Positions 24,646-42,064 are shown, numbered from the stretch's first letter. The stretch: DNA of 64,000 nt from an uncultured Gammaproteobacteria bacterium (GCA_964498425.1 CAZCGQ010000001.1:99063-163062); one strand, 5' to 3'. Notes: generated by a model not told the origin, from the letters alone. Made by a program: numbers and translations.

Positions 24646-25374
24646 ATGAAGCCGGTGGATTTTGTAAAAATAATTGTTAATCAATACAACAACCATCAGG
24701 GAGTTTTTAAAAACCACTTAAACGCCGAGGATTATGTCCCCGAAACCAGTGATACAAAAAAAGCCTTATTCCTTTTTTATGTCATCCAACTCGACTATGC
24801 CACCAAATCCCAACGCCTCTACCAAGGAGCGAGAGAGCTTTTTAATCACCAACCTGATTTTTATTCTCCGTCTTTTATTCTCTCCCTTTCTCAAAAAAAA
24901 TTAAAAGATTATCTATCCGAATACCTAAAACCCCGGTATATTAACGAAGCAATTAACCGCTATCAAAAAAACTCACAAATGCTGTCCAAAAAATACAACC
25001 AAAACCCGCTCTTGATCTTTACAAAATCTGATACAGCCCAGGAAGCCTTAAATAAAGTTAGACAGTTTCGGGGTTTTGGCCCGAAAATTGGTAACTTCTT
25101 TGTCCGGGCGATAATTAATACTTTCTCTCTTAACTACCCCGATATTGAAACTATTTTACCCCCAGTAGATATTCATGACGTTAAAATTGCTTACTTGATG
25201 GGCTATATTAATTCATCAAGAATGACTACCCGAAATATTCATCAAACAAAGCAAGTTTGGAGCAAAGCTTGTCGACAAGCCGGGGTCAGCTGGCTGGTTT
25301 TTGACAAGGCTCTTTGGTTGTTCGGCTCGGAAGCCCAACCAAAATCAAAAAAAGAAATCTTGGCTCTACTTTAA
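24646..25374 (+). CDS. Hypothetical protein, possible HhH-GPD-like DNA glycosylase fold
   Basis: RQFRGFGPKIGNFFVRAI resembles the HhH-GPD hairpin. Weak. Confidence 0.3.
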   Translation: MKPVDFVKIIVNQYNNHQGVFKNHLNAEDYVPETSDTKKALFLFYVIQLDYATKSQRLYQGARELFNHQPDFYSPSFILSLSQKKLKDYLSEYLKPRYINEAINRYQKNSQMLSKKYNQNPLLIFTKSDTAQEALNKVRQFRGFGPKIGNFFVRAIINTFSLNYPDIETILPPVDIHDVKIAYLMGYINSSRMTTRNIHQTKQVWSKACRQAGVSWLVFDKALWLFGSEAQPKSKKEILALL

Positions 25375-26130
25375 ACCTTCATGTCTGGCGCGGGTGTTGA
25401 AGTAAGCACAGTAATCGCAGTCATCGCCGCTGGCCGGAATTTCATCAGATTCCAAACAATTCTTAATATCAAAAATTGCTTTTTCCACCCAGGAATCATC
25501 ACCGGTATAACCGATCAAAGTAACATCAAATTCCAACACTCCGTCAAAAGCCTCCCTATCCTTATCTCCATTAGCATAAACAAAATAACCGGTATCCGAC
25601 ACCGGATATCCATTCTGCCTTAACAACCACTGGTAAACTTCCATCTGCCGCTTATAACTATCCTGCCAGTCCTCATCAAGAGCAGTTATTTCCTTATCCT
25701 TACTCGTTGACTTGTAATCAACAACAATGTATTCATCATTAGAATTAATCCACAAATCGTCAATTGCTCCAAAAACAAGCAGGTTAGTCGGCTGATGAAG
25801 ATGACGAACCCCAGTAAAATTATTCCGCCAGTCATCCAGATCATCATGGGACACCGGCCGGGCATCAACTCCATATTTTTCAATCAGCGGATGTTGTTTC
25901 CCCTCAGCCCGGTGAGCATCAAATTCCTGTTTGAGCAAATGGTCAACGGCAGAATTTAAAGCGAAGGGATATCCCGGCGGACGCTTTGTGCCCAACACCC
26001 GGTCAATATAAAAACAACGCGGGCATTCAATAAACAAATCAATCTTCGACCGGCTTAAATTAAACGGCTCCTTCTGGCCCTTTTTATACCGGTACTTTTT
26101 ATCCCTCTGCGGGTTATAATAATCACTCAT
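25366..26130 (-). CDS. PD-(D/E)xK nuclease with Fe-S cysteine cluster (Cas4/RecB-like)
   Basis: GAIDDLW...IVVDYKS (D...D-YK nuclease core). N-terminal CPRCFY and C-terminal CLESDEIPASGDDCDYCAY cysteines resemble the Cas4/AddB Fe-S arrangement. Confidence 0.6.
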   Translation of the reverse strand: MSDYYNPQRDKKYRYKKGQKEPFNLSRSKIDLFIECPRCFYIDRVLGTKRPPGYPFALNSAVDHLLKQEFDAHRAEGKQHPLIEKYGVDARPVSHDDLDDWRNNFTGVRHLHQPTNLLVFGAIDDLWINSNDEYIVVDYKSTSKDKEITALDEDWQDSYKRQMEVYQWLLRQNGYPVSDTGYFVYANGDKDREAFDGVLEFDVTLIGYTGDDSWVEKAIFDIKNCLESDEIPASGDDCDYCAYFNTRARHEGLK

Positions 26131-30775: not shown

Positions 30776-32368
30776 CTAATCCCTTTCAAAATTCCAAAAC
30801 CAATCCCATTCTGGCTCCTCAATTTCTTCAATATCCGACTCTTCCAACCTATATTCCCCATCATAATCTCCAACTTTCTGTGTTCCCTCAAAATATTTAT
30901 GAATTAACTTTTCATCAATTAAGTCCGCCGAATAAAACTTAACAAAGACCGTATTTTCTTCATCCTCTACTTCCTCAGATTTAACAAATACAACATACAA
31001 AGTATTTTCATAACCTTCCTTCCACCGCTCAAATGTCCAGTCAGTATATTCCCGGGAAAGCAAATCATACGCCTTTTTTAATTCTCCAGTTGTTTGATAA
31101 TTATAAAAAGCCCGAACACATTCAAGTGGACTTTCGTTCGGCTTAAATTCAATTTTCTCAACGTCAGCAACTGGGTCATCAGCCTTCCGCATTTCATCCC
31201 ACTTTTGATTAATTAGATCATTAGCAGATATCCCAAAACTCAATCCTTCTCGATACAACTGATTTACCCCATAAACTTTGCCGCAAATATCAATCATCGG
31301 ACCACCGCTCATTCCATGGCCTAGTTGGATATCCGTTTGTATCATCTTAGTTGGAAATCCCTCTGGTTGTCTAAGATCAATAAAATGTCCTTTATTAAAA
31401 GTTGCTTCACCGGGTACCGAAGTCCCCAAGGGATAACCAACAGCAATTAACTCATCTAAATTTTCTAGATTGTTAACATCACCAAATTCTAAACTTGGTA
31501 TATTCTCTAGGCCAGAGTCTACCTGAATAAGTGCCAAATCTGATTCCTTATCCGCAGCAATAACCTTCCCTTGCAAAGGGGTGTAGTCCGGCAAAACAAT
31601 CTTCGGTCTCATGTCTCTGGCAATAACATGATGATTCGTCACTACATAGGGATCAGCTATGAGAAATCTGTTTTTCTTAACAAGAAAACCTGAGCCTTCA
31701 ACATTCCTGCCAATAATTCTAACTACACTTTTTTTAACCTCTTCAACTGTTTCCTTTTCATCACAAAGAAGCCTGCTTTCCCCAATTGCCGTCTCAAGTC
31801 TAACCACCCTTTCCGTCAACTGCCAATTTCTCCAACCCAAAAAGCCAATTACTGCCACCAACAGCAACACCCCTAACTTTCGAAAATTCAAATTTATTTT
31901 TTTTCTTTGTCTCTTAGCTCCCAAATATACAAAGTCCTTTTCATCTTTCTTGCGCTCGATTCCTTCAAAAAACTTCCGAACCGGTTTAAATATCCTCAAA
32001 ATCCAAACCAAAAACTGAAATACAAAAAAAAACAAAAAATAATCACCGACTAAACCAATCCAAGTATTCCCTACATCAGCGCTCATCGCAAACCAAAGCA
32101 GAAAACCAAGTTGCCCAATAAAAAATATCAGCCGTGCAAAACGAGCCCTTTCCCCAATGTTTTTATAAATCAATTGGTAAAGAAAAAGAAAAGAAGGAAC
32201 AAAAAACAAAATACTTAAATATCCCAACCACTCAATCTCCAAAAACTCACTCGACACATACATTCCCACCCCAATCAAAAAAGCCCCAACAACAAAAACC
32301 TTATTACTAAAAATAACTTTGGACTTGGATATTAATCTATTACTTTCTCTCACTCCACTCTTCGGCAA
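30776..32368 (-). CDS. Membrane-anchored trypsin-like serine protease (S1/DegP-like)
   Basis: N-terminal multi-TM region; catalytic triad contexts TNHHVI (His), DLALIQVD (Asp), [11 protein letters not shown] (GxSGGP Ser). Confidence 0.75.
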
Positions 32369-35300
32369 ACAATTCAGCTTGATCTAACACAGTCTTGGTC
32401 GCCTTTTCTTGCTTGTCCGGTGGGTAATTATATTTTTTAAGCAATTTCTTAACATATATTCGCAATTTAGCCTGAACGTCTTTTCTCTTAGTCCAATCAA
32501 TGGTTGCATTTTTTTGGATTAAACCTAACAATTCTTTTGCCATCTCGCGTAATACCTCATTCCCTAACTCTCTTACAGCACTCTCGTTTTCTGCCAAAGC
32601 ATCATAGAAAGCAACCTCTTCTTCACTTAACCCTAATTCCTTACCCTTTTCCTGCTCTTTTTGGATTTCTTTTGCTAAAGATACTAATTCTGCAATTACT
32701 TCAGCTGAGGAAATTGTTCGATCCTGATATTTCTTAATTGTGTTTTCAAGCATTTCTAAAAATGTTTTTGAAGCGACAATATTTTTTCTTGACATTTCCT
32801 TTATACTGTCATTCAATAATTTTTTCAAAATCTCAAAAGCGAGATTTTTATGCTCCATATCTTGAACTTCCCTCAAAAACTCTTCACTTAAAATCCCGAT
32901 CTCTGGTTTTTCAATCCCAACTTCCTCATATATGTTAAGAACTTCATCTGAAACGATTGCATTGGAAAGTATTTGTTTTATGGCCGCATCGTAATCAGCT
33001 TCTGTTGGCCCTCCCTCTCCGTCATCCGGTTCTAATTTAATTATTCCGGCCTTTACCGCTTGAAAAAAGGCAACCTCCTCCCTTATTTTTAGTGCTTCTT
33101 CATGGGGTACAGCTATAGAAAATGCTTGACTCAATGCTGAGACCGCTTTTTTGTACCTTTCGGCACCATCTTCTAAGCTTAAGATAAAATCAATTGCCTC
33201 TGTTATAATTTCCGTCCGTCTACCCTCATCAACTTCAAAATATTCCATATATTCAAACCTGTGAAAAAGACTCTTTACAACTTCATATTTTTCCTTCAAT
33301 ACCTGAACCGCTTCGTTCTGCGGTACACCAGTAAGCTTCCGGTCTTCTTTAGTGTAATAGGATAATGCTTTTTGTAATTCACTAGCAATTCCAAGATAAT
33401 CAACAATCAGTCCTGCTTGTTTATCCTTGTAAACTCGATTAACCCGAGCAATTGCCTGCATTAAAGAATGTCCATTCATTGGCTTATCAACATACATCGT
33501 ATGCAAAGAAGGAACATCAAACCCCGTTAACCACATGTCACAAACTATTGCTAATTTTAATTCATCATCAGGGTTCTTCATCCGCTCAGCCAGTCTATCT
33601 CGCCCCCTTTTGTTTCTAATATGAGGCTGATATTCTTGAGGATCACTTGCCGACCCAGACATAACTACCTTTATTTTTCCTTCATCTAACTTATCACTAT
33701 GCCAGTCGGGTCGTAATTTTGTGATTTGAGTATAAACATCTACAGCAATTCTTCTACTCATCGTTACAATTAGCCCTTTGCCCTCGATAACGTTCAAACG
33801 TTCTTCAAAATGACTAACAATATCCTTGGCTACTAAACACAGCCGTTTCTCAGAGCCAACCATTTTTTCCAAACGAGCCCATCTAGCCTTTATTCTTTCC
33901 TTTCTTGTTGATTCTTCACCTGCAGTAATGTCTTCAAACTCCCGATTTATCCTCTTGCTTTCTTTTGCATCTAATCCTATTCGGGCAAGCCGGGCCTCGT
34001 AATAAATAGGAACGGTTGCTTCGTCCTGGACCGCCCGCGAAATATCATAAGTATCGATTACATCTCCAAAAACAGCAACTGTATTCTTATCTTTTAAAGC
34101 AATCGGCGTCGCTGTAAAACCAATAAAAGATGCATTAGGCAAAGCATCACGAATATATTTTGCATAACCATATTTAACTGTTCCATTTTCTAACTTAGCC
34201 TGAAATCCATACTGACTTCGGTGAGCTTCATCAGCAATGACAACAATGTTTCTTCTCTCTGAAATAGTTGGAAATTTAGTCTTATCATCTTCTGGTAAAA
34301 ATTTTTGTACGGTTGTAAAAATAACACCACCTGAAGCAACATCTAATTTCTCTTTTAAATCTTCCCTGCTTTGGACTTGCTTTGGACTCTGACGAAGCAA
34401 ATTCTTTGACTTAACAAATGTGTTAAAAAGTTGATCATCCAAATCATTTCGGTCAGTAATTACAACCACAGTTGGATTATTTAATTCCTTAATCAACTTG
34501 CCAGCAAAAAAAGTCATCGTTAAACTCTTACCACTTCCTTGGGTGTGCCAAATTACTCCAATTCGCTGATCACCCTTTTCATCTGTAGCCTCTCTTGCTT
34601 TTTCCAAAGCTTTATTTGTTGCGAAATATTGATGATAACCAGATACTATTTTCTTGATATTACCTCTGTCATCATGAAACGTAACAAAATTAGTAACTAA
34701 ATCCAGTAATCTGTCTTGGTCAAAAATTCCTTTAACTAAAACTTTGGTTTCATTATGCGATCTCGGGGCAATTACCTTACCGTCAATACTTCGCCATTTT
34801 AAAAACCATTCCCAAGGTGAAGTAATAGTTCCACATCTTGCCTGAACTCCATCGCTAATAACTAACAACTCATTGTAAGCAAACAAAGAGGGTACTTCTC
34901 TTTTATAAGTTCTAAACTGCCGAAATGCATGTTTAATGGTTGCTCTTTCTTTAGCTGGATTTTTTAATTCAAAAACTGCTAAAGGTAAACCGTTAACAAA
35001 AACAACCACGTCAGGGACACGATTATTTTGACCTTCAATAATCCGAAACTGGTTAACTGCCAACCAATCGTTATTTGCAGAATCCTGCCTATCAATTAGC
35101 CAAACTTTATCACCCTGTATTCTTCCATCCTCAACCTTATATTCAACGTCGACACCGTTAATCAGCATATCATGAAAAATTTCGTTGTTAGTTTCTAACT
35201 TTGGACTACGGTTAGGAACATTTAAAACTTTCCGCAATGCTTCTATTCTAGCCGACTCAGGAACTTCTGGATTTAACCTGTTAATTGCTCTTTCTAACCG

Positions 35301-35468
35301 CTTTTCCAAAACCACATCGTCATAAGTCATACGCTCAAACGGATCAAACCTACCATTTGTTTCCGTCACCGGCTCCGGACTAATATCCGGCCCAAACATT
35401 GTTTGGTACCCTAATTTCTCGAGCCAACCTAAAACTGCTTTTTCCAGTGATGATTCTTTATATTTCAT
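32340..35468 (-). CDS. hsdR: Type I restriction enzyme R subunit
   Basis: HsdR_N hallmark [19 protein letters not shown]; helicase motif [12 protein letters not shown]; motif [12 protein letters not shown]; 1042 aa. Confidence 0.93.
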
Positions 35469-36228
35469 TAAGATTTTTTAAGAAGTTTATAAAAGTCCTG
35501 AAACGTAATACTTTTTCGCTGTCCAAAACATCATTAATTACATCTTTATTCATTTTTTCCCCAAATTTTTCGGCAAAGTGAGTCTCCCTATAATTTTTAC
35601 CTAAAAGCCTAGAATGTATTTTTTCTAATTGATTTTTGGGCTTAATAAAATACTTTTCAGGATCTATTTTTGACAAATCACATTCAAGTACGCTATTTAT
35701 CGCTTCTTCCTCCATCCCTAATTTAAGAAGTATTTTAGGCATAGACAAATACCATGCTTCTAGCTCCATCACAGAGTAATAAATTGAAACTTTATTACCA
35801 TCGATGGTTTTGCAAACTCGCTTTGCTTCTTTTTCAAAATCTTCTATAACATTATTATCTATCTCATCGCCAGCTAGATCACAATAATCTTCACTATATA
35901 TATCTCTTAAACCACATATGTAGTCTTTCTGGCCCCTAACCAAATCATCATTTGTAGTAGATAAAAACTTATTACCATACTTCTTTATCCAACTCAAAAC
36001 CTTTTTATCACCTCCAACATTATGCAAAACGATGTTCAACTCAACTTCATCTAAATTACTACCATTTTTTGAGGGAAAATCACGATAGGCCTTTCTGTAG
36101 GGATTATCCGAGAAAAACTCAATGCATTTTATTTTAACTTTCTGTGAATCATAATTATAAAGAACTAAAATTAACTTATAAACAAATATAAGTTCCGACA
36201 TACCTTCAACAACTATATATACTTTCAT
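35458..36228 (-). CDS. Toprim-like (DUF4276/DUF4435-like, OLD-family type) protein, partner of the upstream ABC ATPase
   Basis: N-terminal [15 protein letters not shown] (hhhVEGxxE, Toprim beta1 Glu) and acidic cluster [12 protein letters not shown]. 256 aa. 23 nt downstream of the ATPase gene and overlapping the hsdR start. Confidence 0.5.
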
Positions 36229-36251
36229 TTACTTTTTAAAAAATAAAAACT

Positions 36252-37370
36252 TCATTTAAGTTGCGAAAGCAGATCTGACGAAAAAACGTCAAAATTCGAT
36301 AAGCCTGTTTTCTTAAAATTATCAAAGACTTTTTTATTAGTTTTATAATTATAAGCTTTAACCTCATAGTTTTTTCTACTTAAAATATTCCAATACTTGA
36401 CATTAACTGCATTCATTAGAACCTCGTCATTCGTTGTTGCAATAAGTTGAACATTATTCTTCTTAGTTCTTTGAACGATTAGATGGGAGAGCTTTCTCGC
36501 TCTTTCATAATCTAAACCCTCACAAAGATCATCAATGATTAAGGTCGAAAAATTATTTGTACTTATCACTTGATGTAAAATAACTAAAATAGAAAAAGCT
36601 CTATACATGCCATCGGAAATTGACATTTGCTCTATTGGTTTAGGAATTCCTTCTTCTTTAAAAATTAGATATTTACCAGACTTAATAACATTATTAATTA
36701 TTAAGTCAATTTTTTTTGTTGTTACATCTTTTAAGTCATAACCTACACTATTAAAATCGTCTATAATCATTCTTTGCTTGGATTTAGATAACCCAGAAAA
36801 AATAAGTGGAACTATATTTAAACCCCTGAGTTCCGCTAATTCATCCCGCTCATCAGTACTTATATCAGTAGGTCTATTAAACCCAAAATATATTCCTCTC
36901 ACAGATTCAGCCCAGTTTACAAGAGACTCTAGAAAAGGAAACTCTTTTGTATCTCGCCTGACATGTAATACTAATTTGTTTTTAGGAGGATTCAACTTCA
37001 CTTGATCAGGTTTATTTTTTAGCTTGGAAGCCATTTGTGCCTTAGTATCAGACCGCAAAAGTTTCTTTTCATTATTTAAAACTAATTTTTCCTCAATTAC
37101 TTCGTGATCTTTTACCCTTAAGCAATATTTAAGCTTGTCGTTTGTATCTTCATCATGAAATAAAGCCTGCCAATGACCATTTAATACCCCTCTTTTTTCA
37201 GTAATAACATATGCCAAATTCCACACAACACGAACAGTTCTGGTCTTCCCAGTCGCATTTTTACCAACGATTAGATTTATATTTGAGAGATTAAGATTAT
37301 CTAATGCCCAAGGATTTTTTGAATCGTTAGTATGCTCTTTATATTTTATTGAGGTTAATTTAAATGCCAT
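36252..37370 (-). CDS. ABC-type AAA ATPase (AAA_21/AAA_15-like)
   Basis: Walker A LIVGKNATGKT; signature-like MSISDGMYRAFSIL; Walker B STLIIDDLCEGLD; H-loop region LIATTNDEV. 372 aa. Confidence 0.7.
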   Translation of the reverse strand: MAFKLTSIKYKEHTNDSKNPWALDNLNLSNINLIVGKNATGKTRTVRVVWNLAYVITEKRGVLNGHWQALFHDEDTNDKLKYCLRVKDHEVIEEKLVLNNEKKLLRSDTKAQMASKLKNKPDQVKLNPPKNKLVLHVRRDTKEFPFLESLVNWAESVRGIYFGFNRPTDISTDERDELAELRGLNIVPLIFSGLSKSKQRMIIDDFNSVGYDLKDVTTKKIDLIINNVIKSGKYLIFKEEGIPKPIEQMSISDGMYRAFSILVILHQVISTNNFSTLIIDDLCEGLDYERARKLSHLIVQRTKKNNVQLIATTNDEVLMNAVNVKYWNILSRKNYEVKAYNYKTNKKVFDNFKKTGLSNFDVFSSDLLSQLK

Positions 37371-37400
37371 TTCATTTCCTAATTAACATTATACACAATA

Positions 37401-38651
37401 TTAACTTTTAATTCTTATCCTCCCACTCATTAATCTCGGCAAAAGTAAATCGCGGATTTTATTCAAGTTTCGGGTTTCTTTAACATTTTTAGTTATATTA
37501 ATACGTAGTTGGTTAACAGTCTCTGTAAAATGTCTAACTATATTAGGCGATGGTATTAGCAAATCAAAGCTTCTTATTTCTGTGGCATTTATACTTTTCC
37601 TTGTTGTTCCAGTGCTAGCTCCAGATACAAAAGTTTGAAATATAGGTGAATTTAAATAGTAAAAAAGAAAATAAGCCGTTGTTATGCTTGGCTCTTTCAT
37701 TTTAAGTCTAATTAAGTAGGATGCAAAAACAGCATCCTCACTGTCATTATCAATGATAGCAACTTTTCCTGGATCAGCCATCCTTGCAATGACAATATCA
37801 CCTTTCTTGAGCTTGTATTTTTCCAAGCCAGCGTTATCTATTTCACAAAACGGTACAGCATCCCATAGTATCCAATCGCTTTTATTTATATCCGTTACCC
37901 TTAAAAAGTGCGGGCCCACCTCTTGTTCACAAGCGGATTGGGTGTAACCGTACTGTGTATTTGCCACATCACCTATTTCTTTTACTTTCCAGTTTTCCGG
38001 AATTTCACCAAGCTCTGTATCTTTCAAGATACCTCCACCCGATTTAAAAGGTTCACCTTCCAAATCAAATTCATTTTTTTCAAAATTCCAAGGGAATTCA
38101 AAATCAATAAACCAATGTTTAAATATTGCTTTTCCAATTTCCTCTAAGGTTTTATTTGTCTTTTTATTTAATTTGATTTTGTCATCAAGGGAGGAAAGAA
38201 TAGAAATGATTTGTTTAATTTCTGCGTCTCGTGGAATTAATAAACTAATTTTTTTGACATCTGATTGCCTTATAAGTGGTTGTGTACTTCCTGCATTTAA
38301 AGAGGTAAAATCAAATAATTGTAAGCAATAATAAAGATATTTCAACCTGTCCGTATCGCTACACTTAAAATATAAAACGTTATCAGAGGGCCAACATTTT
38401 TCCTCTTTAAAGTAAATCTCACCAAGTGTTCCGACTCTTCCAATCAATACAGATGGACCACTTATTAAATAGTCATCCAATTTCCCTAGGACTCCATTAG
38501 CTCCTAATACTGGAAATTGACCCTCTTTTTTTCTCTTCGAAGCAGGTAAATATTTTCCAGAAGCAATATTGAACACTTCACCTAATTCCTTGAATTCCCA
38601 GCCTTTTGGGACTTCATCCGTTTGTAATTGATTCCTTTTTCTTTTATTCAT
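37401..38651 (-). CDS. hsdS: Type I restriction-modification specificity subunit
   Basis: Two target-recognition-domain halves with conserved spacer; N-terminus KGWEFKELGEVFNIASGKYLP... is typical of HsdS. Confidence 0.85.
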   Translation of the reverse strand: MNKRKRNQLQTDEVPKGWEFKELGEVFNIASGKYLPASKRKKEGQFPVLGANGVLGKLDDYLISGPSVLIGRVGTLGEIYFKEEKCWPSDNVLYFKCSDTDRLKYLYYCLQLFDFTSLNAGSTQPLIRQSDVKKISLLIPRDAEIKQIISILSSLDDKIKLNKKTNKTLEEIGKAIFKHWFIDFEFPWNFEKNEFDLEGEPFKSGGGILKDTELGEIPENWKVKEIGDVANTQYGYTQSACEQEVGPHFLRVTDINKSDWILWDAVPFCEIDNAGLEKYKLKKGDIVIARMADPGKVAIIDNDSEDAVFASYLIRLKMKEPSITTAYFLFYYLNSPIFQTFVSGASTGTTRKSINATEIRSFDLLIPSPNIVRHFTETVNQLRINITKNVKETRNLNKIRDLLLPRLMSGRIRIKS

Positions 38652-38980
38652 TTACTTAAAATATTAAATACTTGTAATAAGAAACTAATAGTAATTAAAA
38701 GCATTCCCAAGTTCCCTAACTGTTTGTACTTTAATGCTTTCTTTTTTTCTTCTTCATCAATTTGTTCTAGTATGAGATGCTGATGTCCCTCTGTATCTAA
38801 TTTGGGAGAAAGTCCAAAAAAGAATAACAACAAGGAGCCAATAAAACCTAAAATTGCACTCCAAAAATCAAGGTTTTTCATTAATTCTAATACCAAATTA
38901 AAATTAATAAATACTTTCAAAGCTTCTTTATTATTTTTAAGAACCATTACTTTCATTTGTCTACTTTCCCGTAAATCCAT
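38648..38980 (-). CDS. Small two-TM membrane protein inside the R-M operon
   Basis: 110 aa; TM1 FWSAILGFIGSLLLFFFGL, TM2 LGMLLITISFLLQVFNIL. Its stop overlaps the hsdS start. Confidence 0.5.
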   Translation of the reverse strand: MDLRESRQMKVMVLKNNKEALKVFINFNLVLELMKNLDFWSAILGFIGSLLLFFFGLSPKLDTEGHQHLILEQIDEEEKKKALKYKQLGNLGMLLITISFLLQVFNILSK

Positions 38981-39672
38981 CTATACAAAGACATCAATAA
39001 CGGCCAAAAAACAAAAACAATTAAAAACCACACAATCAACCAAGGAATTTTTAATACTTCTACGTATGAAGATATGTCTACTAAAACAATTGGCTTATGC
39101 AAAATGCTAACTTGACCCAATTGCATAATTCCAAGAAAAGCTAATAACCATAGGGTGTCTATTGGCCAAGAATACCGATAGCTATTCCAAAAAGCTAAAA
39201 CAGGTTTTTTATTGTGTATCTCATGAAGCACTTCACCAATTAACAGGCCTTCTTCTGTTGGCCTGTAATCCCATTTTTTGTTATCTCCAAAGGCACTACT
39301 TTTAAAAGCATGTGTTTCCCTGTCTAAAAGTTCTAGCCCTTTTATTACTTTTTCCTTCGCCTCTTCGCCTTTTTTTTCATCGACTCTTTCTACTACCTCT
39401 ATATAACCACGCCAAAAAAGGTTAGATATTATGTGATTAAGTTCGTTTTCATCTTTTTTAGACTTAAATTGTGTAGTTTCTTCTATCCATTTTTTAAAAT
39501 TCTTTCTACTGACAAAATTAGATAAATGTTGATGTCCTTTACCATAAGCTGTTTGTAAAAAAGCAGCTTCATACTTCCACAGATGTTTGTATTTAGAAAT
39601 ACCTTGTTCATCTCTTATTTGCTGGTAAATGTTTAGCTTCTTTAGAAATCTTGATGGAAAATTCAAATTCAT
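38953..39672 (-). CDS. Hypothetical protein with soluble N-domain and two C-terminal TM helices, inside the R-M operon
   Basis: 239 aa; C-terminal hydrophobic helices PIDTLWLLAFLGIMQLGQVSIL and IPWLIVWFLIVFVFWPLLMSLY. Confidence 0.5.
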   Translation of the reverse strand: MNLNFPSRFLKKLNIYQQIRDEQGISKYKHLWKYEAAFLQTAYGKGHQHLSNFVSRKNFKKWIEETTQFKSKKDENELNHIISNLFWRGYIEVVERVDEKKGEEAKEKVIKGLELLDRETHAFKSSAFGDNKKWDYRPTEEGLLIGEVLHEIHNKKPVLAFWNSYRYSWPIDTLWLLAFLGIMQLGQVSILHKPIVLVDISSYVEVLKIPWLIVWFLIVFVFWPLLMSLYRWIYGKVDK

Positions 39673-39702
39673 ATTTTAAACCTCTTTATTTTAATTGTGT
39701 TT

Positions 39703-40137
39703 TCATTGGATATTTTTTTCGTATTCTTGGTTTGCTAAAATATCTACTCTTTTTGCTAAATCTGCCGTTCTGGGATGATGAAAATATTCAACTTTTTTAT
39801 ATCTTAATTCAAACGATTTTGCCTTGTCATAAAGAGGTTTAATGTGGTCTTTTCTCATTCTATATTCACCAGTCATCCATTTAATTACTAATTCACTATC
39901 CATCCATACTTCAACTTCACGTCTCGTGTGTTCTGTTGCCTTATCTAAGGCATAGATTAATCCACTGAATTCAGCCTGGGGAACAGTCATTTCACCCAAA
40001 AATTTAGAATATTCATGTTCATTTCCTGCCTCATCAATAAAAAGTACCCCACACGCAGATTTCCCTCTACCGCGCCTGCCTTTAATATGAGCATTTGGAA
40101 TTTTACAACAAGAATCAACTATAATTTTGAATGTCAT
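39703..40137 (-). CDS. RNase HI-like (RNase H type 1 fold) protein
   Basis: Four catalytic carboxylate contexts in order: IVDSC (Asp), QAEFSG (Glu), WMDSELV (Asp), TADLAKRVD (Asp). 144 aa. The start overlaps the hsdM stop (ATGA). Confidence 0.65.
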   Translation of the reverse strand: MTFKIIVDSCCKIPNAHIKGRRGRGKSACGVLFIDEAGNEHEYSKFLGEMTVPQAEFSGLIYALDKATEHTRREVEVWMDSELVIKWMTGEYRMRKDHIKPLYDKAKSFELRYKKVEYFHHPRTADLAKRVDILANQEYEKNIQ

Positions 40138-41690
40138 ATCTCAAATCCTACTTTTTTCAAATTTTCTTTTATCTTTTTTTCTAATTTTTTTGATTCTTGA
40201 AATTGTTCAGAGAGTTCGGAGGTGAGGCGGGTCATTTTTTCTTCAAACTCTTCATCGTCAATAATGTCAATTTCAATTCCAACATAACGACCGGGGGTAA
40301 GAACGCAATTGTTCTTTTCTACTTCTTCCAGCGTCGCGGATTTGCAAAAGCCTTTTGTATCTTCGTAATCGCCACCTTTTTCTTTCCACTCGTGATAAGT
40401 ATTGGCAATTTTGTCAATTTCTTCCTCGGTTAATTCGCGGTGGCGGCTATCAATCATTTCCCCCATATCCCGAGCATCAACAAATAGAATTTCATTTCGC
40501 CTCTCTCTGTCATCATTACTCTGTTTATGCCTTGATAAAAACCATAAAGTACAAGGAATGGCTACGTTATAGAAGAGTTTATCCGGCATAGCAACAATAC
40601 AATCTACCAAATGGTCTTCGATTATTGCCTTCCTAATTTCCCCTTCATTTGAAGTTTGTGACGCAAGGGATCCATTTGCCATTACAAATCCAGTGATTCC
40701 TTTTGGGCTTAAATGATGAATGAAATGCTGAATCCAAGCATAATTAGCATTACCGGTAGGCGGCGTTCCATATTTCCACCGGACATCATTTTTAAGTTTT
40801 TCCCCTCCCCAATCACTGATATTAAAAGGCGGATTAGCTAAAATATAATCAGCCTTCAAATCAGGATGCAAGTCATTATGAAAGCTGTCACCGGGTTCCC
40901 CACCTAAATCACCTTCAATGCCGCGAATTGCCAAATTCATTTTGCATAACTTCCATGTGGTTGGGTTAGATTCCTGGCCGTAAATTGAAATATCCTGTAT
41001 TTTTCCGCCATGCTCTTCAACAAACTTTTTGCTTTGAACAAACATTCCACCACTCCCACAACAAGGATCATAAACCCGCCCCTGATATGGCTCAATCATT
41101 TCTACTAGTAAGCGAACAATGCAAGTGGGCGTAAAAAATTCACCGCCCCCCTTACCTTCCTGGCTAGCAAATTTGCCGATGAAATATTCATAGACACGAC
41201 CAAAAACATCTTGTGATTCTTCCTTGTTACCCTCCATGTTAATACCGCTAATTAAATCCACTAACTCTCCCAGTACTGTTTTATCCAATTCCTCTCGACT
41301 GTAGCGCTTAGGAAGTACACCTTTTAATGTTTGATTCTCTTTTTCAATTGCGATCATTGCATCATCGATAATTTTGCCAATCTGCGGATCCTTGGCATTT
41401 TCCCTGATATATTGCCATCTGGCCTCTTTTGGCACCCAAAATACATTATGCATACTAAAAGCATCTTTATCTTCCACAAAGCCTTTTCCCAATTCCGGGT
41501 CTTTTTTAATCTCTTTCATCCGGTTTTCAAAAGAATCTGAAATGTATTTCAGGAACAATAGTCCCAAAAAAACATGTTTGTATTGGGATGGATCCATATT
41601 ATTCCGCATTTTGTCGGCAGCCTTCCAAATCTCTTTCTCAAAACCCAATTTAGCTGAAGAATTATTTCTCGACATATTTAATTTTACCAT
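40134..41690 (-). CDS. hsdM: Type I restriction-modification DNA methyltransferase subunit
   Basis: HsdM N-terminal EKEIWKAADKMRNNMDPSQYKHVFLGLLFLKYISD; SAM motif DPCCGSGGMF; catalytic LANPPFN (NPPF). An alternative ATG lies at 41675. Confidence 0.93.
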   Translation of the reverse strand: MVKLNMSRNNSSAKLGFEKEIWKAADKMRNNMDPSQYKHVFLGLLFLKYISDSFENRMKEIKKDPELGKGFVEDKDAFSMHNVFWVPKEARWQYIRENAKDPQIGKIIDDAMIAIEKENQTLKGVLPKRYSREELDKTVLGELVDLISGINMEGNKEESQDVFGRVYEYFIGKFASQEGKGGGEFFTPTCIVRLLVEMIEPYQGRVYDPCCGSGGMFVQSKKFVEEHGGKIQDISIYGQESNPTTWKLCKMNLAIRGIEGDLGGEPGDSFHNDLHPDLKADYILANPPFNISDWGGEKLKNDVRWKYGTPPTGNANYAWIQHFIHHLSPKGITGFVMANGSLASQTSNEGEIRKAIIEDHLVDCIVAMPDKLFYNVAIPCTLWFLSRHKQSNDDRERRNEILFVDARDMGEMIDSRHRELTEEEIDKIANTYHEWKEKGGDYEDTKGFCKSATLEEVEKNNCVLTPGRYVGIEIDIIDDEEFEEKMTRLTSELSEQFQESKKLEKKIKENLKKVGFEI

Positions 41691-41730
41691 TTAATTCGTG
41701 GGGGCTAAAGGGTAAGGCGGTTAAAAATTA

Positions 41731-41759
41731 TTTAATTTTGAAAATAATTATCTTATAAT
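41731..41759 (+). promoter_or_regulatory. Candidate sigma70-like promoter, leaderless, for the 41768 gene
   Basis: TTTAAT-N17-TATAAT. The -10 ends 8 nt before the ATG at 41768, implying a leaderless transcript. Read by eye. Confidence 0.3.
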
Positions 41760-41767
41760 AACTCGAA

Positions 41768-42025: not shown

Positions 42026-42030
42026 TAATT

Positions 42031-42056
42031 AGTACCATGGTTCGAACCATGGTACT
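42031..42056. repeat. 26-bp perfect palindromic element AGTACCATGGTTCGAACCATGGTACT (family copy 1)
   Basis: Perfect inverted repeat, preceded by gaatagtaatt, followed by an A7 run. Intergenic. Confidence 0.85.
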
Positions 42057-42064
42057 AAAAAAAT

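What the first reader, a model, noticed from the sequence alone, without database searches (positions are those of the whole stretch)
35458..41690. Type I R-M operon (hsdM..hsdS..hsdR) carrying two embedded accessory modules in a single co-directional, tightly coupled gene string
All eight genes from hsdM (41690) to hsdR (32340) are on the minus strand. Junctions are overlapping or very short: hsdM/RNaseH ATGA overlap, the 110-aa gene/hsdS overlap, the Toprim-like gene/hsdR 11-nt overlap, and 23- to 31-nt gaps elsewhere. That argues for one transcription unit. Canonical Type I systems are hsdR, hsdM, hsdS only. Here a three-gene module sits between hsdM and hsdS (RNase HI-like plus two small membrane proteins) and a two-gene module between hsdS and hsdR (ABC ATPase plus Toprim-like). 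The inserted stretch (about 35.4-40.1 kb) looks clearly more AT-rich than flanking core genes. Defence genes are known to nest in R-M loci. This particular composite, in what looks like a CPR-type genome, is a strong candidate for an uncharacterised multi-layer defence island.
Basis: partly seen in the sequence, partly recalled or inferred. Interest (0 to 1): 0.85.

Follow-up and report, generated by a model that had tools for sequence, protein, structure and literature searches.

The report
Type I restriction operon with nested accessory genes
A DNA-restriction operon in a tiny-genome (CPR-like) bacterium carries four independently acquired extra genes or gene pairs; one belongs to a known defence-candidate class, and two (an RNase H and a membrane-anchored DNA-binding-type protein) turn out to recur next to restriction genes elsewhere and appear undescribed.

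Summary
Eight minus-strand genes (41690 to 32340) form one tightly coupled string: hsdM, RNase H-like, p239, p110, hsdS, ABC ATPase, p256, hsdR.

The "two modules" reading holds only in part. Comparison with 51 related loci shows four separate insertions at the two inter-subunit junctions.
- **ATPase + p256.** This is a divergent AAA_21 ABC ATPase plus a DUF4276 (Toprim superfamily) protein. It matches the known HEC-01/AbiL/PARIS-like class, which has no proven phenotype.
- **RNase H.** It has an intact DEDD tetrad and belongs to a conserved subfamily (45-74% identity). That subfamily lies inside Type I operons in 6 of 9 loci examined, usually just before hsdS. It is better conserved than HsdM or HsdR.
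- **p239.** This is a rare, mostly CPR family with no Pfam or PADLOC model. It has a cytosolic winged-helix domain and two TM helices. It lies directly downstream of methylase or restriction genes of Types I, III, IIG-like and II-like in 8 of 15 loci.
- **p110.** This small 2-TM protein has one detectable relative, which also sits beside a p239 homolog.

A syntenic ortholog locus (L014) has only p239. Nesting in R-M operons is known; the RNase H and p239 associations appear new. All functions are inferred.

The parts
40134..41690 (-). hsdM, Type I methyltransferase subunit (518 aa)
   Evidence: Pfam N6_Mtase E=6.2e-111 and HsdM_N E=5.8e-28; PADLOC MTase_I E=4e-222.
39703..40137 (-). RNH: type-1 RNase H-like protein (144 aa, RVT_3 family), ATGA-coupled to hsdM
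   Evidence: RVT_3 E=4.7e-13, above the cut-off. NCBIfam RNase HI models. Nearest PDB entry is LC11-RNase H1 3u3g, E=9e-13. DEDD residues D8/E56/D80/D132 are conserved in 27 relatives. Relatives lie in Type I operons in L033, L034, L035, L047 and L050/51.
38953..39672 (-). p239: membrane-anchored winged-helix protein (239 aa). Conserved basic N-terminal region (1-55), WH domain (about 56-155), two TM helices (about 157-185 and 200-238)
38648..38980 (-). p110: small two-TM protein (110 aa as the longest ORF; probably 102 aa from the ATG at 38956), ATGA-coupled to hsdS and probably to p239
   Evidence: Hydrophobic segments 36-61 and 87-110. ATGA overlap of codon 9 with the p239 stop. NCBI calls it as 102 aa, and an identical copy lies on a separate Logan contig. 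No Pfam, PADLOC, PHROG or NCBIfam family. The only relative is an 84-aa 2-TM ORF directly upstream of p239 in L022/L028.
37401..38651 (-). hsdS, Type I specificity subunit (416 aa, two target-recognition domains)
   Evidence: Methylase_S E=1.1e-42 with two stretches; PADLOC Specificity_I E=4.6e-92.
36252..37370 (-). ABC-type ATPase (372 aa, AAA_21), first gene of the ATPase/Toprim pair
   Evidence: AAA_21 E=3.3e-12 over the full model. PADLOC AbiLi E=2.8e-19, AriA E=5e-17, HEC-01A E=7e-11. A 33% identical ATPase is paired with a DUF4276 gene in L031. Second-lowest GC in the window.
35458..36228 (-). p256: divergent DUF4276 (Toprim-superfamily) protein, predicted nuclease partner of the ATPase
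   Evidence: DUF4276 at 27.0 bits vs cut-off 30.2. Weak HEC-01B hits, E about 2e-3. Its only non-identical relative, P0043, scores 30.2 bits over the whole DUF4276 profile and follows an AAA_21 ATPase. The N-terminal IVVEGxSELIF motif has E8 conserved. The structure model failed, pLDDT 39. Lowest GC in the window.
32340..35468 (-). hsdR, Type I restriction/translocase subunit (1042 aa)
   Evidence: HSDR_N, SWI2_SNF2, ResIII, T1R_D3-like and T1RH-like_C; PADLOC REase_I 1168 bits.
41691..41767 (.). AT-rich 77-nt gap between hsdM and a divergent 85-aa ORF; presumed operon promoter region (inferred)
   Evidence: Sequence. No gene lies upstream on the same strand before the hairpin. No consensus promoter was called specifically here.
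42029..42058 (.). Perfect 13-bp-stem hairpin between two convergent genes; upstream boundary of the transcription unit
   Evidence: Terminator-like site with 13 pairs; sequence.

Best explanation
This is a complete, probably active Type I R-M operon in a CPR-like genome. Its two inter-subunit junctions have served as landing sites for four accessory units that occur independently elsewhere. All are expressed with the R-M genes from one promoter upstream of hsdM.

Shown:
- The gene identities and the tight or overlapping junctions.
- Each accessory unit occurs in other loci without the others.
- RNH and p239 recur next to R-M genes.

Inferred mechanism:
1. HsdM2S methylates the host DNA. HsdR2M2S translocates and cuts unmodified DNA (established Type I biology).
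2. The ABC ATPase and the DUF4276/Toprim protein form an OLD/PARIS/HEC-01-like sensor-nuclease pair. By analogy with PARIS, the ATPase holds the nuclease inactive until a phage cue releases it, giving a back-up layer.
3. RNH is a metal-dependent RNase H made together with the methylase module. It would cut the RNA strand of RNA:DNA hybrids (R-loops, replication primers) on incoming DNA. That would deny primers to the invader and/or clear the path for the translocating enzyme.
4. p239 sits in the membrane with its winged-helix domain in the cytoplasm. It accompanies R-M systems of unrelated types, so it most likely acts on what they share, DNA at the membrane where it enters, rather than on one particular subunit. 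p110 may be its small membrane partner.
For: Core subunits.

Operon anatomy.

Independence of the inserts:
- L014 is a syntenic ortholog (HsdR 60% identical, same downstream peptidase gene). It has hsdM-p239-hsdS-hsdR only.
- RNH-only Type I operons: L033, L034, L035, L047, L050/51.
- A stand-alone HTH-ATPase-DUF4276 cassette lies beside transposases in L031.

RNH:
- 6 of 9 loci (5 of 8 lineages) lie inside Type I operons.
- It is always within 8 nt of hsdS, or within 1 nt of hsdR in L047.
- It is 53-68% identical across these loci, against HsdM 37-53% and HsdR 31-43% in the same loci.
- The DEDD tetrad is conserved.

p239:
- 8 of 15 loci (7 of 14 lineages) have it directly downstream of a DNA methylase or restriction gene.
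- Type I: window, L014, L009, L022. Type III-like: L018. Eco57I methylase plus IIG-like helicase: L010/L024. N6_Mtase: L025. EcoRI-methylase fragment: L012.
- Three more loci have an HNH, SLFN-like helicase or AAA_15/21 neighbour.
- Even with a 5% background for R-M genes, P is about 2e-7. A CPR survey reports only 4,737 restriction enzymes in 12,552 genomes.

ATPase/Toprim class.

Low GC of the inserts.

Assembly support.
Against: - No expression or functional data exist.
- HEC-01 gave no protection in the only published test.
- p256 is below the DUF4276 cut-off, and its Toprim fold and DxD motif could not be verified.
- RNH is conserved like a housekeeping enzyme, and 3 of 9 loci are outside R-M operons.
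- Four of 15 p239 loci have no recognisable defence neighbour.
- CPR genomes are compact, so tight junctions alone are weak evidence of a functional link.
Confidence: 0.6

Rival explanations
1. Passive hitchhiking in a compact genome. The inserts have no functional link to restriction. RNH is the cell's housekeeping RNase HI. p239 and p110 are unrelated membrane proteins. Only the ATPase/Toprim pair is a selfish or defence cassette. The R-M junctions merely tolerate insertions.
For: RNH is highly conserved (45-74% identity) and is found outside R-M operons in L036, L046 and L048. p239 lies next to ribosomal, gyrase, aaRS or cupin genes in L001, L029 and L007. Same-strand, tightly packed genes are the norm in this window.
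Against: RNH sits at the same position, just before hsdS, in Type I operons whose HsdM and HsdR are only 31-53% identical to the window's. p239 follows methylase or restriction genes of four different R-M types. The orthologous locus L014 lacks RNH, so RNH is not in a conserved housekeeping position. Even the non-R-M RNH loci carry Shedu, recombinase, RadC or YgjP-like neighbours.
Confidence: 0.2
2. p239 is a membrane-tethered transcription regulator of the R-M operon. It would be a functional analogue of C-proteins or RptR, built like ToxR-type anchored regulators, and would set R-M expression rather than act on invading DNA.
For: Winged-helix fold with best matches to MarR- and PadR-type repressors. 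A basic, highly conserved N-terminal region. Small regulators are known to associate with Type I systems (RptR).
Against: It is never the first gene of the operon and always follows a methylase or restriction gene. No repeated operator-like motif was found in the locus. The N-terminal region keeps the same conserved sequence across R-M systems with unrelated promoters. A two-TM anchor with no sensor domain is unusual for a regulator.
Confidence: 0.12
3. p239, with or without p110, is an abortive-infection membrane effector. The winged-helix domain would sense foreign DNA or a DNA-mimic anti-restriction protein, and the TM helices would disrupt the membrane when restriction fails.
For: Two membrane proteins sit together in a defence operon. 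A p110-like 2-TM ORF lies beside p239 in a second, divergent locus. Other small membrane proteins lie next to p239 in several loci. There is precedent for systems that sense anti-restriction proteins (PARIS).
Against: There is no similarity to known membrane effectors, holins or PADLOC models. The TM region is the least conserved part of the family (21-45% identity against 78% for the N-terminus). Many distant relatives keep only one TM helix.
Confidence: 0.12
4. The composite locus is an assembly chimera.
For: It comes from a metagenome-assembled contig, and composition differs between the inserts and the hsdM/hsdR genes.
Against: An independent Logan assembly is 100% identical across ATPase-p256-hsdR. 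Identical RNH and p110 proteins are found in Logan assemblies. Reading frames overlap across four junctions. Similar architectures exist in other loci.
Confidence: 0.02

Closest known systems
Type I R-M operons with embedded defence genes ('guilt by embedding': PrrC, DarTG2 in the EPEC RRDM island, PADLOC HEC/PDC candidates)
   Same: Accessory genes are nested between the hsd genes, especially at the hsdS-hsdR junction, and are co-oriented with them. Related loci here carry KAP NTPase, 23S_rRNA_IVP, DUF4145 or DUF3800 at that same junction.
   Different: Both junctions are occupied at once, by four units. Two of the inserted families (RNH, p239) have no PADLOC v2 model and are not mentioned in the text or the 11 supplementary files of the embedding survey.
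HEC-01 (PADLOC), and more broadly the ABC ATPase + Toprim pairs: AbiL, PARIS AriA/AriB, OLD, Gabija, and the MADS Mad4 (DUF4276) protein
   Same: A two-gene cassette in which an AAA_21-type ABC ATPase is followed by a Toprim-superfamily protein, embedded in another defence system.
   Different: The partner is DUF4276-like, not the DUF4435 of AriB and not RloB. Scores are weak (HEC-01B E about 2e-3; DUF4276 at 27 bits). Only two relatives were found among 5.8 billion clustered proteins. No phenotype is known even for HEC-01.
Type-1 RNases H of the LC11 / Sto-RNase HI / Rv2228c N-domain group (Pfam RVT_3)
   Same: A single-domain protein of about 145 aa with the DEDD active site. Sequence matches to solved RNases H at E=9e-13 to 1e-5.
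   Different: This subfamily has an extra Cys/His-rich loop after strand 1 (DACCHIPxAHIKGR). It is mostly encoded inside Type I R-M operons, a context I did not find described.
R-M-associated DNA-binding regulators (C-proteins, RptR) and MarR/PadR winged-helix repressors
   Same: A small DNA-binding-type fold encoded with R-M genes.
   Different: p239 is membrane-anchored by two TM helices and is never promoter-proximal. It has no sequence family in Pfam and accompanies several R-M types.

Membership tests
Type I restriction-modification system | HsdM with N6-adenine methylase and HsdM_N domains | tested here: met
   N6_Mtase E=6.2e-111; HsdM_N E=5.8e-28.
Type I restriction-modification system | HsdS with two target-recognition domains | tested here: met
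   Methylase_S E=1.1e-42 with two stretches; PADLOC Specificity_I E=4.6e-92.
Type I restriction-modification system | HsdR with an N-terminal nuclease domain, an SF2 translocase and a C-terminal assembly domain | tested here: met
   HSDR_N E=1.9e-48; SWI2_SNF2 E=3e-81; T1RH-like_C E=3.7e-125.
Type I restriction-modification system | Sequence-specific methylation and ATP-dependent restriction activity | not testable with these tools
   Needs methylome data or biochemistry.
HEC-01 (ABC ATPase + Toprim, PADLOC) | HEC-01A-type ABC ATPase | tested here: met
   Several HEC-01A models hit at E=7e-11 to 1e-4. AbiLi (2.8e-19) and AriA (5e-17) score better.
HEC-01 (ABC ATPase + Toprim, PADLOC) | Adjacent HEC-01B / DUF4276 Toprim-like partner | tested here: inconclusive
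   HEC-01B hits at E=2e-3 to 7e-3. DUF4276 at 27.0 bits, below the 30.2 cut-off. The relative P0043 reaches exactly 30.2 bits over the full length.
HEC-01 (ABC ATPase + Toprim, PADLOC) | Toprim fold with a catalytic Glu and a DxD motif | tested here: inconclusive
   E8 after strand 1 is conserved and D74 and D109 are conserved between the two sequences, but no clear DxD is present. The AF2 model is unusable, pLDDT 39. A PDB profile search found nothing.
PARIS (AriA/AriB) | AriA-type ABC ATPase | tested here: met
   PADLOC AriA E=5e-17, model positions 1-304 of 304.
PARIS (AriA/AriB) | AriB with a DUF4435 Toprim domain | tested here: not met
   p256 has no AriB or DUF4435 hit in PADLOC or Pfam; its only match is DUF4276. 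It is therefore not filed as PARIS.
Type-1 RNase H (RVT_3 / RNase HI family) | RNase H-fold sequence signature above the family threshold | tested here: met
   RVT_3 at 49.6 bits vs cut-off 21.6; PDB RNases H at E=9e-13.
Type-1 RNase H (RVT_3 / RNase HI family) | DEDD catalytic tetrad | tested here: met
   E56 and D80 are invariant; D8 and D132 are at least 90% conserved in 27 sequences; all four are present in the window protein.
Type-1 RNase H (RVT_3 / RNase HI family) | Cleavage of RNA in RNA:DNA hybrids | not testable with these tools
   Needs an enzyme assay.
MarR/PadR-type winged-helix regulators (considered for p239) | Winged-helix fold | tested here: met
MarR/PadR-type winged-helix regulators (considered for p239) | Sequence membership of the family | tested here: not met
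   No Pfam hit for p239 or for 33 distant relatives. p239 is not filed as MarR or PadR.
R-M controller (C) proteins (considered for p239) | Small soluble Xre-type HTH protein encoded upstream of the restriction gene | tested here: not met
   p239 is 239 aa with two TM helices, has a WH rather than an Xre-type fold, and is located after the methylase or restriction gene.

The most novel reading that the evidence does not exclude
Two previously unrecognised accessory families work with R-M systems. The first is an RNase H1 subfamily that is a near-obligate passenger of one Type I lineage and assists or backs up restriction by acting on RNA:DNA hybrids of invading DNA. The second is a mostly CPR, membrane-anchored winged-helix protein that couples R-M systems of any type to the cytoplasmic membrane, where DNA enters these bacteria. 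Some CPR bacteria are shown to be naturally competent (title and abstract of PMC10187176, listed).
Probability: 0.3. Interest if true: 0.72.

Novelty: new variant of a known kind. Interest (0 to 1): 0.55.

Why it matters
CPR/Patescibacteria rarely carry CRISPR (abstract of PMC6509639, listed), so R-M systems are probably a main barrier to foreign DNA in these organisms. This locus and its relatives point to two gene families that travel with restriction systems and are missing from current defence catalogues. One is an RNase H, which would link RNA:DNA hybrid processing to classical restriction. The other is a membrane-tethered winged-helix protein that attaches to Type I, III, IIG-like and II-like systems alike. 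Both are short genes that could be tested in E. coli alongside a Type I system. If either changes restriction efficiency or the range of phages or plasmids blocked, it would add a new kind of R-M accessory function. If not, the locus is another example of the known 'embedding' hotspot.

Tried and rejected
- **p256 structure.** The alignment had only two sequences, so the model was unusable (pLDDT 39) and I did not fold-search it. A profile search of PDB found nothing.
- **afdb50 fold library.** It was unavailable. A BFVD viral fold search with p239 gave no significant match.
- **Window p239 look-up.** The exact protein is not on record for a contig look-up.
- **Viral contigs.** No p239 relatives were found. 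The only RNases H found are distant (33-41% identity) and were not used.
- **RNH against phage genomes and plasmids.** There was no phage match and one weak plasmid hit.
- **Conserved partner of p239.** All-against-all comparison of its neighbours found none apart from the p110-like ORF in L022/L028. The small ORFs in L014 and L050 are not p110-like, and the L050 ORF is a split HsdS C-terminus.
- **Insertion scars or hsdS shufflon repeats.** Only short, chance-level repeats turned up.
- **Structured RNAs and tRNAs.** None were found in the window.
- **PARIS membership.** Rejected, because there is no DUF4435 partner.
- **MarR/PadR or C-protein membership for p239.** Rejected (see the membership table).
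- **Literature.** Searches for RNase H or RVT_3 in R-M operons returned nothing relevant. That covers only the held library.

Full report
**Observation.** The window carries eight co-directional minus-strand ORFs between 41690 and 32340.

| Gene | Coordinates |
|---|---|
| hsdM | 40134-41690 |
| RNase H-like gene (RNH) | 39703-40137 |
| p239 | 38953-39672 |
| p110 | 38648-38980 |
| hsdS | 37401-38651 |
| ATPase | 36252-37370 |
| p256 | 35458-36228 |
| hsdR | 32340-35468 |

hsdM/RNH and p110/hsdS overlap as ATGA. p256/hsdR overlap by 11 nt. The other gaps are 23-30 nt. One refinement concerns p110: codon 9 is an ATG that forms an ATGA overlap with the p239 stop codon. NCBI's own annotation calls that 102-aa form.

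Pfam and PADLOC identify the three Type I subunits unambiguously. The inserted genes are AT-rich. p256 (GC 0.297) and the ATPase (0.308) are the two lowest of 49 ORFs of at least 450 nt in the window, whose mean is 0.395 with sd 0.040. p239 is 0.324, RNH 0.343 and p110 0.270. hsdS, at 0.339, is also low.

Consensus promoter and terminator hits inside the string are at or below shuffle expectation. The operon inference therefore rests on the junctions. Upstream, a perfect 13-bp-stem hairpin (42029-42058) separates two convergent genes. A 77-nt AT-rich gap then separates hsdM from a divergent 85-aa ORF. An independent assembly (L032) is 100% identical over 2,734 nt covering ATPase-p256-hsdR, which argues against a chimera.

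**The ATPase/p256 pair.** The ATPase matches AAA_21 over the whole model. In PADLOC it matches AbiLi, AriA and HEC-01A. p256 scores 27.0 bits on DUF4276, below the 30.2-bit cut-off, and only weakly on HEC-01B.

A search of 5.8 billion clustered proteins found just two relatives of p256. The non-identical one, P0043, matches DUF4276 over the full profile at exactly the cut-off. It follows a 33% identical AAA_21 ATPase in a stand-alone HTH-ATPase-DUF4276 cassette beside transposase genes.

PMC12065111 assigns DUF4276 to the Toprim superfamily and notes its presence in MADS (Mad4). Payne et al. describe HEC-01 as an ABC ATPase plus Toprim pair embedded in other systems, and it gave no protection in their assays.

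I could not verify the Toprim fold directly. The AF2 model failed (pLDDT 39) and a PDB profile search found nothing. E8 after the first strand is conserved, but a clear DxD motif is not evident. I therefore file the pair as HEC-01-like. It is not PARIS, because there is no DUF4435 partner.

**RNH.** The protein passes the RVT_3 threshold, and its nearest solved relatives are type-1 RNases H: LC11-RNase H1, the Rv2228c N-domain and Sto-RNase HI. The DEDD tetrad is conserved across 27 relatives. It has more than 100 close relatives at 45-74% identity, in CPR and in other phyla.

The nine loci I could inspect have these gene orders:

| Locus | Gene order | In a Type I operon? |
|---|---|---|
| Window | hsdM-RNH-p239-p110-hsdS | yes |
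| L033 | RNH-hsdS-IVP-hsdR | yes |
| L034 | hsdM-RNH-hsdS-IVP | yes |
| L035 | hsdM-RNH-hsdS-DUF4145-hsdR | yes |
| L047 | hsdM-hsdS-RNH-hsdR | yes |
| L050/51 | RadC-hsdM-KilA-N-RNH-hsdS-DUF3800-hsdR | yes |
| L036 | beside a Shedu gene and a serine recombinase | no |
| L046 | beside a DUF5615 gene | no |
| L048 | RadC-RNH-YgjP-like | no |

That makes 6 of 9 loci inside Type I operons. L033 and L034 encode the identical RNH protein, so I count them as one lineage, giving 5 of 8 lineages.

Within these loci RNH is 53-68% identical to the window protein. HsdM is 37-53% identical and HsdR 31-43%. The subfamily has no PADLOC v2 model. It has no match in the phage genome collection. RNase H and RVT_3 are not mentioned in the text or the 11 supplementary files of the embedding survey. 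Full-text searches found no description of an RNase H embedded in an R-M operon.

**p239.** It has no Pfam, NCBIfam, PHROG or PADLOC family. The family is rare. The word-indexed search found 41 relatives. A profile search found 89 representatives at 50% clustering among 1.84 billion proteins. Most named members are CPR/Patescibacteria. A few lie on MAG contigs labelled otherwise.

Gene contexts of p239 relatives:

| Locus | Gene order around p239 | Class |
|---|---|---|
| Window | hsdM-RNH-p239-p110-hsdS | Type I R-M |
| L014 | hsdM-p239-hsdS-hsdR | Type I R-M |
| L009 | hsdM-p239-hsdS-KAP NTPase-hsdR | Type I R-M |
| L022 | p110-like-p239-hsdS | Type I R-M |
| L018 | mod - two unknown genes - res - p239 | Type III-like R-M |
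| L010/L024 | Eco57I-type methylase - T5orf172/ResIII IIG-like protein - p239 | IIG-like R-M |
| L025 | N6_Mtase-p239 | methylase |
| L012 | DUF3800 - EcoRI-methylase fragment - p239 | Type II-like methylase |
| L011 | HNH-p239 | other defence-like |
| L008 | SLFN-like helicase - p239 - unknown - SocA/Panacea | other defence-like |
| L015 | AAA_15/21 ATPase - unknown - p239 | other defence-like |
| L006, L007, L001, L029 | no recognisable defence neighbour | none |

So 8 of 15 loci (7 of 14 lineages) place p239 directly downstream of a methylase or restriction gene. Under a deliberately generous 5% background this has P of about 2e-7. A CPR survey counts only 4,737 restriction enzymes in 12,552 genomes. 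p239 is absent from IMG/VR contigs.

**p110.** It has two hydrophobic helices and no family hit. Its only detectable relative in the 51 loci is an 84-aa two-TM ORF directly upstream of a 40% identical p239 homolog in L022/L028 (phmmer E=1.3e-5 across both helices). This hints at a p239/p110 pairing, but it rests on two loci.

**Are the two 'modules' real units?** No. L014 is a syntenic ortholog of the window locus: its HsdR is 60% identical and the same peptidase gene lies downstream. It contains hsdM-p239-hsdS-hsdR, with no RNH, no p110 and no ATPase/p256. RNH occurs in Type I operons without p239. The ATPase/DUF4276 pair occurs on its own.

The locus is best read as a Type I operon whose two junctions have each collected insertions. 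hsdM-hsdS holds RNH, p239 and p110. hsdS-hsdR holds the ATPase and p256. Related loci hold other passengers at the same junctions: KilA-N at the first, and KAP NTPase, 23S_rRNA_IVP, DUF4145 or DUF3800 at the second. This matches the published 'embedding' hotspot.

**Mechanism (inferred).** The Type I core methylates host DNA and restricts unmodified DNA in the established way. By analogy with PARIS/OLD-type systems, the ATPase/Toprim pair would be a sensor-nuclease back-up. This is unproven even for HEC-01.

RNH is predicted to cut RNA in RNA:DNA hybrids. It is translationally coupled to the methylase module, and it is more conserved than the R-M subunits. Both points suggest a substrate common to all hosts, such as R-loops or primers on incoming DNA. 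I give this about 0.3.

p239 probably has an N-in topology, with basic residues on the cytoplasmic sides of both helices. It accompanies unrelated R-M types. That argues that it acts on their shared substrate at the membrane rather than on a particular subunit, again at about 0.3. The rivals are listed separately: passive hitchhiking or a housekeeping RNH, p239 as a membrane-tethered regulator, p239/p110 as an abortive-infection effector, and a chimeric assembly.

**Novelty and verdict.** The overall architecture is a new variant of a known kind: nested defence genes in a Type I operon, with a known-class ATPase/Toprim pair. What is potentially new is the recurrent link of an RNase H subfamily to Type I operons, and the link of a membrane-anchored winged-helix family to R-M systems of several types. 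Both rest on small, non-random context samples and have no functional data. Interest is 0.55.

Noticed in passing
L009:11773-13602; L033:1690-2028; L035:6627-7322; L050:8615-9433: The hsdS-hsdR junction of related Type I operons carries different passengers: KAP P-loop NTPase, 23S_rRNA_IVP four-helix protein, DUF4145 and DUF3800. This is the same hotspot that holds the ATPase/p256 pair in the window.
   Followed up: partly
L048:6262-6975; L050:3701-4369; L051:183-851; L002:4515-5228: A RadC (JAB-domain) gene lies directly upstream of RNH (L048) or of the hsdM-...-RNH operon (L050/51). One also lies in the island that holds a p239 homolog (L002). This looks like a recurrent neighbour of these cassettes.
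   Followed up: no
L010:827-4849 and L024:3647-7675: An Eco57I-type methylase (about 500 aa) is followed by an 837-aa protein with an N-terminal T5orf172/GIY-YIG-like domain, a ResIII helicase region and a PADLOC Type IIG match. A p239 homolog comes next. This is an unusual R-M-like pair.
   Followed up: partly
L018:1317-7280: A Type III-like mod (752 aa) and res (894 aa) pair is separated by two tightly packed genes (216 and 122 aa) with no Pfam or PADLOC hit. The gene after p239 in this locus is 70% identical to window ORF 25366-26130, so the locus comes from a relative of the window organism.
   Followed up: partly
window:41768-42025 (+): An acidic 85-aa ORF is divergent from hsdM, in a stretch where GC skew turns positive, which suggests real plus-strand coding. 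It has no family hit. It ends 3 nt before the 13-bp-stem hairpin at 42029-42058.
   Followed up: partly
window:55633-56265 (+): This ORF has the third-lowest GC in the window (0.311) after p256 and the ATPase. It may be another recently acquired gene.
   Followed up: no
window:1-64000: ARAGORN found no tRNA or tmRNA gene, and there is no Rfam family at gathering score, anywhere in the 64 kb.
   Followed up: yes
L047:3225-4794; L050:7444-8618: Some R-M genes in RNH-bearing operons look split. In L047 hsdM is in two ORFs (337 + 177 aa). In L050 the HsdS C-terminus is a separate 73-aa ORF. These may be frameshifts, assembly errors or decaying systems.
   Followed up: no
L007, L011, L012, L013 (genome contigs records): Some p239-family loci lie on MAG contigs labelled Gammaproteobacteria, Chloroflexota, Bdellovibrionales or Pseudomonadales. 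Either the family is not strictly CPR or these contigs are mis-binned.
   Followed up: no
window:39703-40137 (RNH residues 9-30) and alignment A2: The RNH subfamily has an extra loop after strand 1 (consensus DACCHIPxAHIKGRxGxGKSACG) with an invariant Cys29 and frequent Cys10/Cys11/His. This could be a metal-binding or partner-binding feature that is absent from the solved relatives.
   Followed up: no
window:30776-32368 (-): A membrane-anchored trypsin-like peptidase gene follows hsdR. Its listed TTG start overlaps hsdR by 29 nt, but an ATG at about 32263 preceded by GGTGGG looks more likely. The homologous gene also follows hsdR in L014, so it is a conserved flank.
   Followed up: partly
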